NCBI GenBank assembly: GCA_963783305.1
Contig: CAWAMW010000002.1
Location: 288,001-352,000, forward strand
From: an uncultured Gemmatimonadales bacterium
GTDB taxonomy: Bacteria; Gemmatimonadota; Gemmatimonadetes; Longimicrobiales; RSA9
DNA length: 64,000 nt
Direction of reading: 5' to 3'
Part shown: one piece after another, positions 40,101 to 42,876 of the stretch
Position numbering within the stretch: position 1 is the first letter of the stretch
Layout: every line of letters begins with the position of its first letter
Made by a program: the position numbers

Positions 40101-42876
40101 CGGCGCCATCGGACTTCCGGCCCTGGTCGTCGAAGCCATGACTGATCTCGTGGCCGATCACCGCGCCGATGGCGCCGTAGTTGACGGCGTCATCCGCCTC
40201 CAGGTCGAAGAAGGGCGGCTGGAGGATGGCGGCCGGGAACACGATCTCGTTCCGGACGGGGTTGTAGTACGCGTTGACCATGTAGGGCGGCATGCCCCAC
40301 TCGTTCGGGTCGATGGGCTCGCCGAGCTGTGACACATTGTCGTGGTACTCGAACGCGCGCACGCGACGCAGGTTGTCGAGCAGGTCGCCCTCCTGGATCT
40401 CCAGCCCCGAGTAGTCCTCCCAGACATCGGGGTAGCCGATCTTCGGCGTGAAGTTGGCCAGCTTGTCCTTCGCCTCCGCCTGCGTGGCGGGGCTCATCCA
40501 CTCGAGCTCATCGATCCCCTGGTCGAAGGCCGCGAGCAGGTTCCCCACCAGCTCATCCATGCGGGCCTTGGCCTCGGGCGCGAAGTAGCGCTCGACGTAG
40601 AGGCGGCCGAGCACGTCGCGGAGCGAGCCCCCGACCACGTCCACGCCGCGCTTCCACCGCGGCCGCTGCTCCGTGATGCCGGCCAGCGTCCGCCTGCGGA
40701 AGTCGAAGTGGGCATCGACGAACTCGGAGCTGAGGAGCGGCGCGGCGCCGTCGAGGGTGTGGAAGGTCATGTACGCCTTCCATGTGTCCACGGGCGTCGC
40801 GGCGATGATGTCATCCACCGCCTCGAAGTACGACGGCTGCTGCACGACCACCTGCTCGGCGTCGTCCAGCATGGCGCCGTGCAGGTACGCGGCCAGGTCC
40901 ACCGATCCCATGAGGTCATCGGCCTCGGCCACGGTCATCTTGTTGTACGTGGCGTTGCGGTCGCGGTTCTCCGTCTGCGTCCAGTGCTTGTCGGCGATCG
41001 CGGTCTCGAGGGCCAGGATCGCGTCGGCGGAGGCCTCCGGCCGCGGCTCACCGGCGAGGCGCAGGAGGGTGGCCACGTAGTCGCGGTACGCGCTCCGGAG
41101 CTTCTCGAACTGCTCGCCCTCCCGGAAGTAGTAGTCGCGGTCGGGTAGCCCGAGGCCGCTCTGGCCCAGGTAGGTGATGTGCTGGTCGGACTGCTTCTGG
41201 TCGATGTAGACATAGGCGCCGAACGGGCCGCCGATCCCCAGCGGGGCCGTCTCGCCCCAGAACGCCGGCAGCTGGGCCGTGGACGTGACCTCCGCGATGG
41301 CGTCCAGCTCCGGGCGCACCGCTTCGATCCCCAGCGACTCGATCCGCGCCGTGTCCATGAAGCTGCGGTAGAGCGAGCCGACCTTCTGGGCATCGCTGCC
41401 CTCAGGGGCCTGCAGCGCGGCCACGGACTCCACCACCGCCCGCAGGTTGTGCTCGGCCTCGTCGGCCAGTTGTGCGAACGAGCCGTAGTTCGAGCGGTCC
41501 GCGGGGATCTCCGTGCGCTCCAGCCACTTGCCGTTCACGTAGCGGTAGAAGTCGTCCTGCGGACGCACGCTCTCGTCGATGTTCTCGAGGGCGATCCCGC
41601 TCTCGAGCGCGGGCGCCGTCACGGCCACCGGCTCGGCCTGGGGCGCCGGCGCGGGGGCGTCCGCCGTCCCGGCCGCGCAGCCCGTCAGCGACGCTATGGC
41701 CAGCAGCGAAAGAATTCTGGTCGGGGTACTCGACATAGTCTGTATTCCTCAATGGTTCTGACGTGACAATCTCGTCCGGCGACCTCGCTCGGCACGGGGT
41801 CCATACGCCCCAAAGAGACGTCGGGTTCCGGCAGCGGGCAAGTCAGGCTGGATCCGGTCCGGCGTTCCCGCTGCACGGGCCCACCCCCGCCCGCCTTGAC
41901 CCGCGCCCGGTGTCGCGGCACTATCCAGCCATGGACACGCGCCGATATCCCGCCTATACCCGCTATACGACCCGCCCCGCGGGCCGTGACCGGAGGCGTA
42001 TGCGCTGAGGCGCAGACCGATTCCAGGCGCACGGGCGGCCCGCGGAGCATTTCCGCGGGCCGCCCTTTTTTCATCCGGCACCCAGGTACCCATGATCATC
42101 ATCACGCAGACCGGCATCACGGAGGACCAGCTCGACCACATCCGTGAGCGGGTCGAGGGGCTCGGACTTCGCACCCACGTCTCCCGCGGCGAGAGCCGCG
42201 TCGTGGTGGGCTGCATTGGCGACGAGGACGCGCTGCGGGGCGTTCCGCTCCTCCGGCTGCCCGGTGTGGAGTCCGTCACCGCGGTCACCAAGCCGTACAA
42301 GCTGGCCTCGCGGGCCTTCTCGGCGGGCCCCACGGCCGTCCGGATCGGCGACGCGTCGGGCACGGTGGTGGGCGGCCCGGAGATCACGGTGATCGCCGGC
42401 CCCTGCTCGGTGGAGGGCGACGCCATGCTCCGGGAGACGGCCGGTCGGGTGAAGGGAGCGGGGGCTCGCCTCCTGCGGGGCGGCGCCTACAAGCCCCGGA
42501 GCTCGCCGTACTCCTTCCGCGGCCTCGGGGTGGCGGCGCTGGAAATGCTCGCGGAGGTGCGGTCGGAGACGGGACTCCCGGTCGTCACCGAGGTCATGGA
42601 CACCCGGGAGGTGGATACGGTGGCCCAGTACGCCGACGTGCTGCAGGTGGGCGCGCGCAACATGCAGAACTTCTCGCTTCTGGACGAGCTGGGGCGGATC
42701 CGCCGGCCGGTGCTGCTGAAGCGCGGCCTCTCCGCCACGGTCGAGGAGCTCCTCATGGCGGCCGAGTACATCATGAGCCACGGGAACCGCGACGTGATCC
42801 TCTGCGAACGCGGCATCCGCACCTTCGAGACCGCCACCCGCAACACGCTGGACGTGGGCGCCATCGCCGTGCTGCG

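What a model noticed while it worked through the whole genome (the two positions that open the first line are those of the whole stretch)
41896..42091. Tyrosine-rich leader peptide and terminator: attenuator of the DAHP synthase-chorismate mutase operon
Upstream of g00309 (DAHP synthase, followed by chorismate mutase g00310) a promoter-like TTGACC-17-CACTAT (C2:329896-329924) is followed by an uncalled 25-codon [28 protein letters not shown] (C2:329931-330008), with three Tyr codons in seven, and by a strong intrinsic terminator (C2:330033-330071) 26 nt before the start codon: a ribosome-mediated leader-peptide attenuator that should sense Tyr-tRNA (Tyr/Phe in relatives). The arrangement is conserved across the order Longimicrobiales.
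Evidence so far: Sequence reading; terminator hairpin -34.7 kcal/mol + T-run at 330066; coordinates. Protein-anchored comparison: of 28 orthologous loci with >=150 nt upstream (30 best loci from 45 other Longimicrobiales genomes of 3 families; one too short, one this genome) 18 have a 26-36-codon ORF with >=3 Tyr/Phe/Trp, typically runs such as YYY, FYAFYYYF, YSYYYG, YALYYY, and 21 have a run of >=5 T 18-91 nt before the gene. No Rfam match at E<=1.
(Added by a program. Inside this text positions count along the whole contig: contig position 288,001 is position 1 of the stretch shown here. "Call 12" and the like, gene names such as g00115 and contig names such as C1 are that model's own, and its searches are not shown. 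The text may have been shortened before it was handed on; [...] marks where a part breaks off. The agent that wrote the report below was given it as the finding of a first reader that could run no searches.)

Follow-up and report, generated by a model that had tools for sequence, protein, structure and literature searches.

The report
Tyrosine leader-peptide attenuator, apparently leaderless
A 25-codon tyrosine-containing mini-gene followed by a switchable transcription stop signal sits in front of the tyrosine-synthesis operon; it is most likely a classical ribosome-read supply sensor, a known kind of device that had not been described for this bacterial phylum.

Summary
Comparison with relatives supports its reading.

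- **The element:** a promoter, a 25-codon ORF with three Tyr codons (41931-42008) and a strong terminator (42033-42071) precede DAHP synthase, chorismate mutase and prephenate dehydrogenase.
- **The missing antiterminator:** 41977-41987 pairs with the terminator's 5' arm (11 bp). An upstream strand, just after the last Tyr codon, sequesters it unless a ribosome stalls there.
- **Conservation:** the same layout precedes the orthologous gene in 45 of 78 loci (20/20, 21/26 and 4/32 in three families). A covariance model finds it in other families of the class.
- **Support for translation:** aromatic codons are frame-specific. The promoter ends 6-7 nt before the ATG, and no Shine-Dalgarno motif precedes it, so the transcript looks leaderless.
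- **Support for a tyrosine signal:** Tyr-rich leaders precede Tyr-making gene sets, while mixed Phe/Tyr/Trp leaders precede DAHP synthase alone or with prephenate dehydratase.
- **Same genome:** it also carries His (hisG) and Thr (thrS) leaders of the same build.

There are no usable expression data. The mechanism is known (trp, pheA, Corynebacterium aroR-aroF), so this is a new member of a known kind. This scan has noted analogous devices in other phyla.

The parts
41896..41924 (+). Promoter-like TTGACC (41896-41901), a 17-nt spacer, and CACTAT (41919-41924). The -10 hexamer ends 6 nt before the leader ATG.
   Evidence: Sequence. The best -35/-10 pair ends 6-7 nt before the leader ATG in 35 of 45 leader-bearing loci. 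The scanner finds no site at its own threshold.
41931..42008 (+). Leader ORF of 25 codons, [25 protein letters not shown]. The Tyr codons (all TAT) are at 41946-41948, 41955-41957 and 41964-41966. No Shine-Dalgarno motif precedes it, so leaderless translation is inferred.
   Evidence: Across relatives the aromatic codons are frame-specific: Tyr 150 in frame against 8 and 20 in the other two frames. An SD-like motif precedes the leader ATG in 2 of 45 loci, against 38 of 45 before the DAHP synthase ATG.
41951..41975 (+). Region 1, the 5' arm of the 1:2 anti-antiterminator hairpin (core 41966-41975, U-ACG-ACC-CGC). It contains Tyr codons 9 and 12. A ribosome with its A site on Tyr12 would cover it.
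   Evidence: MFE structures. The hairpin over leader nt 21-68 scores -21.6 kcal/mol.
41977..41998 (+). Region 2. Bases 41979-41998 pair with region 1. Bases 41977-41987 (CCGCGGGCCGU) pair with 42035-42045 of region 3 as an 11-bp antiterminator.
   Evidence: Duplex energy -28.8 kcal/mol. Masking leader nt 1-45 switches the MFE from 1:2 to 2:3. In the 23-sequence alignment, 96.5% of 2:3 cells are paired.
42001..42014 (+). Small hairpin UGCGC/GCGCA with the stop codon UGA (42006-42008) in its loop.
   Evidence: A local hairpin holds the stop codon in its loop in 21 of 44 leaders, against 78 of 308 control codons.
42033..42046 (+). Region 3, the terminator 5' arm GGGCGGCCCGCGGA.
42052..42071 (+). 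Region 4, the terminator 3' arm (42052-42065), followed by the U6 tract (42066-42071).
   Evidence: The 3:4 hairpin scores -34.4 kcal/mol. In the alignment, 98.4% of 3:4 cells are paired.
42092..43165 (+). DAHP synthase, 357 aa, with an N-terminal ferredoxin-like domain.
   Evidence: Pfam PF00793 and PF18152.
43162..43431 (+). Chorismate mutase type II, 89 aa.
   Evidence: Pfam PF01817.
43428..44267 (+). Prephenate dehydrogenase, 279 aa, the last gene of the operon. The next gene (44308-44934) is a convergent methyltransferase on the minus strand.
   Evidence: Pfam PF02153 and PF20463.

Best explanation
This is a ribosome-mediated (leader-peptide) transcription attenuator of a three-gene tyrosine operon: DAHP synthase, chorismate mutase and prephenate dehydrogenase.

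Proposed sequence of events:
1. Transcription starts at or next to the ATG at 41931, so the 25-codon leader is translated without a 5' UTR.
2. When Tyr-tRNA is plentiful, the ribosome runs through to the stop codon. Region 1 (41951-41975) re-pairs with region 2 (41977-41998). Region 3 (42033-42046) is then left to pair with region 4 (42052-42065), and RNA polymerase terminates at the U tract (42066-42071).
3. When charged Tyr-tRNA is scarce, the ribosome stalls on the Tyr codons, most effectively codon 12 at 41964-41966. It then covers region 1 but ends just short of region 2.
4. The free region 2 (41977-41987) pairs with region 3 (42035-42045) as soon as region 3 is made. The terminator cannot form and the operon is transcribed.

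Shown here: the sequence elements, their complementarity, their conserved positions, covariation, and the link between leader codons and downstream genes.

Inferred: the transcription start, translation of the ORF, stalling, the kinetic competition between helices, and the response to tyrosine.
For: **Anatomy in the window**
- ORF, hairpin and U tract are present.
- The gene upstream is divergent (an M13 peptidase on the minus strand). The terminator therefore ends no upstream gene.

**Switch in silico**
- The nascent RNA through region 3 keeps the 1:2 hairpin when free (-44.5 kcal/mol).
- It switches to the 11-bp 2:3 helix when leader nt 1-45 are masked, as by a ribosome with its A site on Tyr12 (-40.0 kcal/mol).

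**Conservation**
- A leader ORF plus hairpin lies directly upstream of the orthologous DAHP synthase in 45 of 78 loci: family f1 20/20, f3 21/26, f2 4/32.
- In two further loci, L027 and L097, the leader sits in front of a hydroxylase gene that precedes DAHP synthase (Pfam-checked in L027 only).

**Position of the antiterminator strand**
- In 36 of 44 leaders the best partner of the terminator 5' arm starts 10-17 nt after the last aromatic codon.
- In 41 of 44, region 2 pairs in the MFE with a strand just after the aromatic run. In 36 of those 41, that strand is fully covered by a ribosome on the last aromatic codon.

**Covariation**
- Terminator arms differ between lineages (GGCCCG, GCUCCC, GGYCCUCG and others), and the in-ORF partner changes with them.
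- Within the 23-sequence alignment, one position changes in step in regions 2, 3 and 4, from A/U/A to G/C/G, in 3 sequences.

**Codons**
- The leaders hold Tyr 12.1%, Phe 5.1% and Trp 1.6% of 1239 codons. This genome's long ORFs hold 2.27%, 3.18% and 1.46%.
- Tyr counts are 150 in frame against 8 and 20 in the other two frames.
- Rare codons are over-used: TAT is 30% of Tyr codons against 14.7% genome-wide. All three Tyr codons here are TAT.

**Structure-defined test**
- In 27 of 44 leaders the antiterminator appears only when a ribosome is placed on certain codons.
- Those codons are 32% aromatic (88/275), against 9.3% (46/492) for the rest.

**Leaderless start**
- The -10 hexamer ends 6-7 nt before the ATG in 35 of 45 loci.
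- An SD-like motif precedes the leader ATG in 2 of 45, against 38 of 45 before the enzyme's ATG.

**Function tracks gene content**
- Tyr-dominant leaders precede DAHPS-CM-PDH. In 17 such loci the mean Phe+Trp count is 0.9.
- Tyr-rich leaders also precede a Biopterin_H hydroxylase (L027, L087) and CM-PDH (L090).
- Mixed Phe/Tyr/Trp leaders precede DAHPS followed by prephenate dehydratase (L009, L018). They also precede DAHPS with no CM/PDH match after it (L010, L021, L025, L029), where the flanking ORFs tested gave no Pfam match.

**Same device elsewhere in this genome**
- A genome-wide scan returned four candidates. One is this leader, one a His6 leader before hisG, one a Thr-rich leader before thrS.

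**Distribution**
- A covariance model built on 23 leaders hits 43 of 151 genomes of the phylum at E<=0.001. Sixteen of them score E<=1e-8, including three other families of the class.
Against: - **No usable expression data.** The one RNA run holding part of the stretch is kept as contigs and cannot show starts or ends.
- **This genome's leader is a weak example.** It has three non-adjacent Tyr codons (P about 0.02 alone, my arithmetic) and a -10 hexamer matching 3 of 6 positions. The promoter scanner found no site.
- **Thermodynamics do not decide the switch.** In full-length RNA the terminator fold stays more stable even with region 1 masked (-55.1 against -43.5 kcal/mol). Readthrough must therefore be kinetic.
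- **The default state is unclear in some relatives.** In 17 of 44 leaders the antiterminator is already the MFE without any ribosome.
- **The stop codon is far from region 2.** It lies about 19 nt downstream, so a ribosome at the stop codon does not cover region 2 as it does in trp. Termination then depends on 1:2 re-forming. In several leaders, placing a ribosome at the stop codon also gives the antiterminator in the MFE.
- **Covariation within the main type is thin.** Most pairs never vary: 1 of 10 pairs in 2:3 and 5 of 22 in the terminated fold change on both sides.
- **The cross-type duplex test was only partly clean.** Four of 8 types bind their own arm best.
- **Many orthologous loci lack it.** Thirty-three of 78 have no leader directly upstream, mostly in family f2.
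- **Relatives are not independent.**
- **Codon content need not predict the effector.** The Corynebacterium aroR attenuator is reported to respond to Phe but not Tyr despite its Tyr codon (review PMC11802643, passages read).
Confidence: 0.85

Rival explanations
1. The device is ribosome-dependent but not tyrosine-specific, or it does not use the 1:2 helix. The only choice would be between 2:3 and 3:4, set by whether a translating ribosome occludes region 2. It might then report general translation rate or another aromatic amino acid.
For: - In 17 of 44 leaders the 2:3 helix is already the MFE without a ribosome.
- In all leaders, the helix is lost once the ribosome passes one or two codons beyond the aromatic run.
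- Many relatives mix Phe, Tyr and Trp codons.
- Corynebacterium aroR is reported to respond to Phe, not Tyr (PMC11802643, passages read).
Against: - In the window, the free nascent RNA keeps 1:2 and not 2:3.
- Region 1 is conserved next to the aromatic run in 41 of 44 leaders. In the main type, 4-fold-degenerate third codon positions within it are invariant.
- This genome's leader has Tyr as its only aromatic residue.
- Tyr-rich leaders go with Tyr-making genes.
Confidence: 0.08
2. The short transcript, or its peptide, is a product in its own right: a small RNA or a small basic peptide acting in trans. The terminator would simply end that gene.
For: - The C-terminal half of the peptide (ATRxTGRGRRR) is conserved across families.
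- Attenuator-derived RNAs and leader peptides with trans roles are reported in Sinorhizobium (search listing and abstracts only).
Against: - The conserved peptide stretch coincides with regions 1 and 2. Its 4-fold-degenerate third positions are invariant, which points to an RNA-level constraint.
- The element always sits directly in front of an aromatic-pathway gene on the same strand.
- A trans role would not exclude the cis role.
Confidence: 0.04
3. It is a ligand-, protein- or tRNA-binding RNA switch (riboswitch, T-box-like or TRAP-like), and the ORF is incidental.
For: A terminator with an alternative helix is also the expression platform of such switches.
Against: - No Rfam family, T-box included, matches even at E<=10.
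- The RNA before region 2 is little more than the ORF, with no conserved aptamer-like fold.
- The frame is open in 45 of 45 loci. Aromatic codons are frame-specific.
- The ATG keeps a fixed distance from the promoter.
Confidence: 0.02
4. It is a chance ORF beside a terminator that merely insulates the operon from the divergent promoter region.
For: The window's ORF alone is only weakly unusual (P about 0.02), and GC-rich DNA has many open frames.
Against: The conservation, frame specificity, covariation and link to gene content listed above all argue against chance.
Confidence: 0.01

Closest known systems
Corynebacterium glutamicum aroR leader peptide upstream of aroF (DAHP synthase). Sources: Mentz et al. 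2013, PMC4046766, passages read; Neshat et al. 2014 as summarised in the review PMC11802643, passages read.
   Same: A short leader ORF with aromatic codons and an attenuator lies in front of a DAHP synthase gene, read out by ribosome stalling. In Corynebacterium, leader peptides can lack a ribosome-binding site (the title of reference 42 in PMC4046766; leaderless transcripts are discussed there).
   Different: The aroR motif is Phe-Tyr-Phe, and the operon is reported to respond to Phe, not Tyr. Here the leader has only Tyr, and the operon continues with chorismate mutase and prephenate dehydrogenase. The phylum differs. I made no sequence comparison, because I held no aroR sequence.
Classical enterobacterial attenuators: trpL-trpEDCBA and pheL-pheA, as described in PMC11802643 (passages read). 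The 1:2 / 2:3 / 3:4 scheme itself is from my own knowledge.
   Same: There are four complementary segments. The regulatory codons lie in or beside segment 1, the intrinsic terminator is 3:4, and readthrough is decided kinetically.
   Different: Those leaders have a 5' UTR with a Shine-Dalgarno site, and their stop codon lies close to segment 2 (recalled). Here the start is apparently leaderless. The ORF runs about 13 codons past the last Tyr codon and contains segments 1 and 2. There is no Rfam match to any leader family.
uORFC-13-1 motif upstream of aroF in Acholeplasma (Brewer et al. 2021, PMC8632094, passages read).
   Same: A predicted uORF attenuator with promoter, start codon, aromatic (Phe) codons and terminator lies before DAHP synthase.
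   Different: It has an RBS, uses Phe (U-run) codons, and comes from a different lineage. It is described as differing from the E. coli aroF 5' UTR.
Leaderless polycysteine short ORFs acting as Cys-responsive attenuators in mycobacteria (bioRxiv 10.1101/834739; title and start of abstract only).
   Same: A leaderless short ORF rich in one amino acid controls downstream operon genes.
   Different: A different amino acid and phylum. I did not read how the signal is transmitted there.
E. coli aroF-tyrA operon. An attenuator sensing Tyr-tRNA was hypothesised by Camakaris et al. 1980, as cited in a table of PMC2659441 and in PMC8632094; the original paper was not read.
   Same: The gene logic is the same: a Tyr-related DAHP synthase is co-transcribed with the Tyr-branch enzyme.
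   Different: Control there is by the TyrR repressor (recalled). The attenuation idea remained a hypothesis.

Membership tests
Ribosome-mediated leader-peptide transcription attenuators | A short ORF in the 5' leader, enriched in codons for the pathway's end product | tested here: met
   Three Tyr in 25 codons here. The leader family has Tyr at 12.1% against 2.27% in the genome background, and the enrichment is frame-specific at 150 against 8 and 20.
Ribosome-mediated leader-peptide transcription attenuators | An intrinsic terminator between the leader ORF and the first structural gene | tested here: met
   Hairpin at 42033-42065 plus a U6 tract, -34.4 kcal/mol, 26 nt before the gene. The upstream gene is divergent.
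Ribosome-mediated leader-peptide transcription attenuators | An antiterminator helix (2:3) mutually exclusive with the terminator | tested here: met
   An 11-bp helix, 41977-41987 with 42035-42045. In the alignment, 96.5% of cells are paired, against 35-42% when the partner is slid. The partner changes along with the terminator type.
Ribosome-mediated leader-peptide transcription attenuators | A 1:2 helix whose 5' strand would be covered by a ribosome stalled on the regulatory codons | tested here: met
   In the window, masking leader nt 1-45 switches the MFE from 1:2 to 2:3. The 1:2 helix is present in 41 of 44 leaders. One caveat: in 17 of 44 the 2:3 helix is already the MFE when the RNA is free.
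Ribosome-mediated leader-peptide transcription attenuators | The leader ORF is translated, and termination responds to charged tRNA | not testable with these tools
   No raw-read RNA data were available. One RNA-library contig covers 41968-42054 but cannot show ends or regulation.
Curated Rfam leader families (Trp, His, Phe, Thr, Leu leaders; names recalled apart from RF00513, which is named in PMC4046766) | A match to the family's covariance model | tested here: not met
   No leader family appears among the matches at E<=10 over 41600-42300.
T-box leader (tRNA-sensing riboswitch) | A match to the T-box model with its specifier-loop architecture | tested here: not met
   No T-box match at E<=10.
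Leaderless mRNAs | The transcription start coincides with the start codon, and there is no Shine-Dalgarno site | tested here: inconclusive
   The predicted -10 hexamer ends 6-7 nt before the ATG in 35 of 45 loci, and an SD-like motif is present in 2 of 45. The transcription start itself was not mapped.

The most novel reading that the evidence does not exclude
Gemmatimonadota may carry a class-wide, modular, leaderless attenuator chassis whose regulatory codons are retuned to whichever genes follow.
- Tyr-only leaders precede three different tyrosine-making gene sets: DAHPS-CM-PDH, a Phe hydroxylase, and CM-PDH.
- Mixed Phe/Tyr/Trp leaders precede the common-pathway enzyme or DAHPS followed by prephenate dehydratase.
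- His and Thr versions precede hisG and thrS.

This would be a truly tyrosine-specific ribosome-mediated attenuator, unlike Corynebacterium aroR, which is reported not to respond to Tyr. The conserved Arg-rich tail and the stop codon held in a hairpin loop might add a further step, such as timing of ribosome release or polymerase pausing.
Probability: 0.3. Interest if true: 0.55.

Novelty: new member of a known kind. Interest (0 to 1): 0.4.

Why it matters
- **Regulation in a little-studied phylum.** It gives a concrete and testable regulatory mechanism for aromatic amino-acid synthesis. My searches of the held paper library for Gemmatimonad* with 'leader peptide' and for Longimicrobi* with 'attenuat*' found nothing relevant.
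- **Annotation.** It supplies a candidate RNA family that Rfam lacks: a 149-position model with hits in several families of the class.
- **Leaderless translation.** It adds a case of regulatory mini-genes that appear to be translated without a leader, outside the Actinobacteria.
- **Predicting specificity.** Leader codon content follows the downstream genes. That makes the family a natural test set for how attenuator specificity evolves.
- **Limits.** The mechanism is textbook, so the gain is in breadth and annotation, not in principle.

Tried and rejected
- **Crude fold measure.** I scored the probability that the terminator 5' arm pairs with anything upstream. It did not separate states (0.1-0.9 even without a ribosome). 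One search replaced it with counts of specific 2:3 pairs.
- **Cross-type duplex matrix.** Only 4 of 8 terminator types bind their own type's leader best. Arm length and GC content confound the comparison, so I treat it as partial support only.
- **Shuffle z-scores for single 2:3 duplexes.** They are modest (about -0.3 to -5), because GC-rich shuffles also pair well.
- **RNA data.** One run (X1) holds 6% of the sampled words and is kept as contigs. A 246-nt contig matches 41968-42054 with 1 mismatch, but its upstream part differs, so it comes from a relative. It shows no starts, ends or regulation.
- **Pattern scan of genome contigs.** Of the 80 loci listed, only 11 match the covariance model at over 60 bits. 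The rest, such as Streptomyces, are chance hits.
- **The second DAHP synthase paralogue (G000:C16:606428).** It has no leader or terminator upstream.
- **The metK candidate from the genome scan (C11:24533).** It precedes SAM synthetase and has no amino-acid run. It is probably a riboswitch region. I did not pursue it.
- **Upstream of the two chorismate-binding genes (trpE-like).** My frame extension was unreliable, so I draw no conclusion.
- **The search of earlier findings by place and by sequence.** Nothing was returned.
- **L096 (G086).** There is only a terminator after another gene, with no leader found upstream of its hydroxylase-DAHPS pair.
- **An 81-codon version of the leader frame.** A GTG at 41763 opens the same frame. 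I rejected it because relatives conserve the ATG at a fixed distance from the promoter and do not conserve the upstream residues.
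Full report
**Observation**

- The promoter-like pair is TTGACC (41896-41901), a 17-nt spacer, and CACTAT (41919-41924).
- An ATG at 41931 opens a 25-codon frame, [25 protein letters not shown], ending at TGA 42006-42008. Tyr codons sit at positions 6, 9 and 12.
- A hairpin spans 42033-42065 (14-15 bp, 13 G-C pairs) and is followed by T6 at 42066-42071. 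The T-run starts 26 nt before the ATG of a 357-aa gene at 42092.

Pfam identifies the genes as DAHP synthase with an N-terminal ferredoxin-like domain, a type II chorismate mutase (43162-43431) and a prephenate dehydrogenase (43428-44267). The next gene is a convergent methyltransferase. The operon is therefore a three-gene tyrosine operon.

The gene upstream is a divergent M13 peptidase on the minus strand, so the terminator ends no upstream gene. The leader RNA folds better than all 200 shuffles (z = -4.17). No Rfam leader, T-box or riboswitch family matched at E<=10; the 11 weak hits were to unrelated families.

On its own the window's ORF is only mildly unusual. Three or more Tyr in 25 codons has P of about 0.02 at the genome's 2.27% Tyr (my arithmetic). 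The promoter scanner reports no site at its threshold.

**Comparative sample**

I searched 101 genomes of the order (three families: f1, f2, f3) with the DAHP synthase protein. Two paralogues appear. One is at least 62% identical to the window's enzyme and the other about 50%.

I collected the upstream DNA of 79 loci of the first kind. One locus has too little upstream sequence, which leaves 78, the window's own among them. Two genomes contribute two loci each.

A short aromatic-rich ORF followed by a hairpin lies directly upstream in 45 of the 78 loci. By family this is f1 20/20, f3 21/26 and f2 4/32.

Three f3 loci have an aromatic amino-acid hydroxylase-like gene directly in front of DAHP synthase. 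In two of them (L027, L097) a strong match to the leader model sits in front of that gene. In the third (L096) I found none.

Most f2 loci have neither an ORF, a terminator nor a model match. The second paralogue in this genome has no leader.

Three of these loci come from unpublished genomes: L015 (G030), L022 (G002) and L027 (G095). Without them the count is 43 of 75. Relatives are not independent, so all of these counts are descriptive.

**The missing antiterminator**

In the window, 41977-41987 (CCGCGGGCCGU, codons 16-19 of the leader) pairs with 42035-42045 in the terminator's 5' arm. The helix is 11 bp, with a duplex energy of -28.8 kcal/mol.

The same strand also pairs upstream. The MFE of the leader has a hairpin over leader nt 21-68 (41951-41998, -21.6 kcal/mol). 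Its 5' arm contains Tyr codons 9 and 12.

Folding the nascent RNA through region 3 gives two outcomes.
- Free RNA keeps the 1:2 hairpin (-44.5 kcal/mol).
- RNA with leader nt 1-45 masked, as by a ribosome with its A site on Tyr12, switches to the 2:3 helix (-40.0 kcal/mol).

In full-length RNA the terminator remains the more stable fold even when masked (-55.1 against -43.5 kcal/mol). Readthrough must therefore rest on 2:3 forming before region 4 is transcribed, as in classical attenuators.

**Is the architecture conserved?**

- In 36 of 44 leaders, the best partner of the terminator's 5' arm anywhere between the ATG and the hairpin starts 10-17 nt after the last aromatic codon. That is about where the leading edge of a stalled ribosome would lie.
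- In 41 of 44, region 2 pairs in the MFE of the pre-region-3 transcript with a strand immediately after the aromatic run. In 36 of those 41, that strand lies wholly inside the assumed footprint.
- Terminator arms fall into several sequence types: GGCCCG in 22 leaders, GCUCCC in 12, GGYCCUCG in 4, and others. The in-ORF partner changes with them: CGGGCC, GGGAGUCC, CGAGGGCC.
- A crude cross-type energy matrix favours the leader's own type in only 4 of 8 types.

I aligned 23 leaders of the main type. In that alignment the proposed helices are paired in 96.3% (1:2), 98.4% (3:4) and 96.5% (2:3) of cells. Sliding the partner drops this to 35-49%.

Most pairs never vary. One position, however, changes in step in regions 2, 3 and 4, from A/U/A to G/C/G, in three sequences. 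The invariant columns include 4-fold-degenerate third positions of the Ala, Thr and Gly codons in regions 1 and 2. The conserved 'ATRxTGRGRRR' tail of the peptide is thus best read as an RNA constraint.

**Is the ORF read?**

- Across the 45 leaders the frame holds 150 Tyr, 63 Phe and 20 Trp in 1239 codons, with no stops. The two other frames hold 8 and 20 Tyr, and carry stops in 33 and 8 loci.
- Tyr is 12.1% of leader codons, against 2.27% in this genome's long ORFs.
- Rare codons are over-used. TAT is 30% of Tyr codons against 14.7%, and TTT is 51% of Phe codons against 4.7%. All three Tyr codons in the window are TAT.
- I also ran a test that defines sensitive codons by structure alone. In 27 of 44 leaders the antiterminator appears only when a ribosome is placed on certain codons. 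Those codons are 32% aromatic (88/275), against 9.3% (46/492) for the rest.
- In the other 17 leaders, 2:3 is already the equilibrium fold. This is a real weakness of the simple model.

**Leaderless start**

The best -35/-10 pair ends 6 or 7 nt before the leader ATG in 35 of 45 loci. Several outliers have a second in-frame ATG a few codons upstream, which I noted by eye. An SD-like tetramer precedes the leader ATG in 2 of 45 loci, against 38 of 45 for the enzyme's ATG. This predicts that transcription starts at the ATG. The start was not mapped.

**Specificity tracks gene content**

Of the 30 loci with downstream flank, 23 have chorismate mutase and 19 also have prephenate dehydrogenase after DAHP synthase.
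- The 17 of these that have a leader, CM and PDH carry 3-5 Tyr and on average 0.9 Phe+Trp.
- Six loci without CM or PDH carry 2-6 Phe+Trp. In two of them (L009, L018, one genus) the next gene is prephenate dehydratase. In the other four no CM/PDH match follows, and the flanking ORFs tested gave no Pfam match.

Leaders of the same RNA family elsewhere in the class precede other gene sets.
- A Biopterin_H hydroxylase, which would make Tyr from Phe. This is Pfam-verified for L027 and L087. L089, L092 and L094 share its N-terminal motif by eye.
- Chorismate mutase followed by prephenate dehydrogenase, without DAHP synthase (L090).

No prephenate dehydratase was found in this assembly, which is 96% complete.

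**The same device elsewhere in this genome**

I scanned the genome for terminators (705 found) preceded by an ATG-started short ORF (195 candidates). I then required a promoter-like pair ending 5-9 nt before the ATG. Four candidates remained.
- This leader.
- MTNAIQMNRHHHHHHGPTGYGGGVRS, before hisG.
- MRQRTTIRASTTTSRAARGRPAGVRA, before threonyl-tRNA synthetase.
- One before metK with no amino-acid run, probably a riboswitch region.

**Distribution**

A covariance model of the terminated fold (149 positions) hits 43 of 151 sampled genomes of the phylum at E<=0.001. Sixteen genomes score E<=1e-8. They fall in the order and in three other families of the class (f4, f5, f8). The few hits outside the class are weak and were not checked.

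A loose DNA pattern scan of named genome records mostly returned chance hits. The 11 of 80 listed loci that match the model at over 60 bits all carry Gemmatimonadota-type names: Longimicrobiaceae, Longimicrobiales, Longimicrobium, or Gemmatimonad*.

**Expression**

One RNA-library run holds a 246-nt contig matching 41968-42054 with one mismatch. Its upstream part differs, so it comes from a relative. The run is kept as contigs, which show neither transcript ends nor regulation. I count it as no evidence either way.

**What is known**

Ribosome-mediated attenuation is textbook for trp and pheA. I read passages on the following precedents.
- In Corynebacterium glutamicum, a leader peptide (Phe-Tyr-Phe) precedes aroF. 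It is reported to respond to Phe but not Tyr (PMC4046766 and PMC11802643).
- A Phe-codon uORF motif precedes aroF in Acholeplasma (PMC8632094).
- A Tyr-tRNA-sensing attenuator was hypothesised for E. coli aroF-tyrA in 1980. It is cited in PMC2659441 and PMC8632094. I did not read the original.

Leaderless Cys-rich attenuator ORFs are reported in mycobacteria (bioRxiv 10.1101/834739; title and start of abstract only).

Searches of the held library for Gemmatimonad* with 'leader peptide' and for Longimicrobi* with 'attenuat*' gave nothing relevant. 'Tyrosine codons' with 'leader peptide' gave one unrelated review.

Earlier notes of this scan describe analogous aromatic leaders before DAHP synthase in several other phyla. 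I did not test those notes.

**Verdict**

The element is a new member of a known kind: a leader-peptide attenuator that is probably tyrosine-sensing and apparently leaderless. It belongs to a class-wide RNA family in Gemmatimonadota that Rfam does not hold.

Open points:
- the lack of expression data;
- the reliance on kinetics;
- the 17 of 44 leaders whose equilibrium fold is already the antiterminator;
- the distance between region 2 and the stop codon.

Noticed in passing
L080:169-311 (G000:C2:83468-83610, outside the window): A His leader, MTNAIQMNRHHHHHHGPTGYGGGVRS. The promoter is TTGACC, a 17-nt spacer and TATCCT, ending 8 nt before the ATG. The terminator is GCCCGTCCGAAACGGACGGGC plus T7, directly before hisG (L080:312-1307; Pfam HisG and HisG_C). 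It has the same build as the Tyr leader and gives a weak full-length match to model R1 (22.3 bits).
   Followed up: partly
L081:129-271 (G000:C7:183728 onward, outside the window): A Thr-rich leader, MRQRTTIRASTTTSRAARGRPAGVRA. It has a promoter-like pair ending 5 nt before the ATG and a terminator, and lies before threonyl-tRNA synthetase (L081:290-2251; Pfam tRNA-synt_2b, TGS, tRNA_SAD). This is a leader-peptide attenuator on an aminoacyl-tRNA synthetase gene.
   Followed up: partly
L064-L070, L074, L076, L077 (family f2 loci), about 80-100 nt upstream of DAHP synthase: Genomes that lack the leader share a conserved motif instead, ...GCCATCTTCCC..., and further upstream AAATCTA-like words. 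This may be a promoter or a protein-binding site, which would point to a different mode of control in that family.
   Followed up: no
window 42001-42014, and the same place in relatives: The leader's stop codon sits in the loop of a small G-C hairpin (UGCGC-UGAG-GCGCA). By my criteria this holds in 21 of 44 leaders, against 78 of 308 control codons. The stem changes to CCGG/CCGG in L022. Its role is unknown; it could be a pause or a release-timing element.
   Followed up: partly
whole genome G000: No prephenate dehydratase (PF00800) was found in this 96%-complete assembly, while all 14 control genomes have one. The chorismate mutase of this operon may therefore feed only the tyrosine branch, or Phe may be made by another route.
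   Followed up: no
L008:974-1112 (G089, first of two copies): A terminator and a 45.6-bit match to the leader model lie before DAHPS-CM-PDH, but only a 3-codon ORF (MIE*) stands where the aromatic ORF should be. The genome's second copy (L034) has a Phe-rich leader, MSQITAFFGFRFFWSTPTEGRGRRVVRG. This may be a decayed or re-purposed leader.
   Followed up: no
L027:1049-1849 (-), L087:782-1477 (-), L090:1562-2871 (+): Tyr-rich leaders of the same RNA family precede a Biopterin_H aromatic amino-acid hydroxylase (L027, L087) or chorismate mutase plus prephenate dehydrogenase without DAHP synthase (L090). L027 comes from an unpublished genome (G095).
   Followed up: yes
L083:134-330 (G000:C11:24533 onward): A promoter-like site, a short ORF without any amino-acid run and a terminator lie before S-adenosylmethionine synthetase (metK). 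This is probably a riboswitch-type leader. I did not check it against Rfam.
   Followed up: no
window 41968-42054: A 246-nt contig in an RNA-library run (X1) matches this stretch with one mismatch. It continues upstream with different sequence that holds more Tyr codons (...CGC TAT TAC GCC TAC ACC CGC TAT TAC G...). A close relative therefore carries a Tyr-richer version of the leader.
   Followed up: partly
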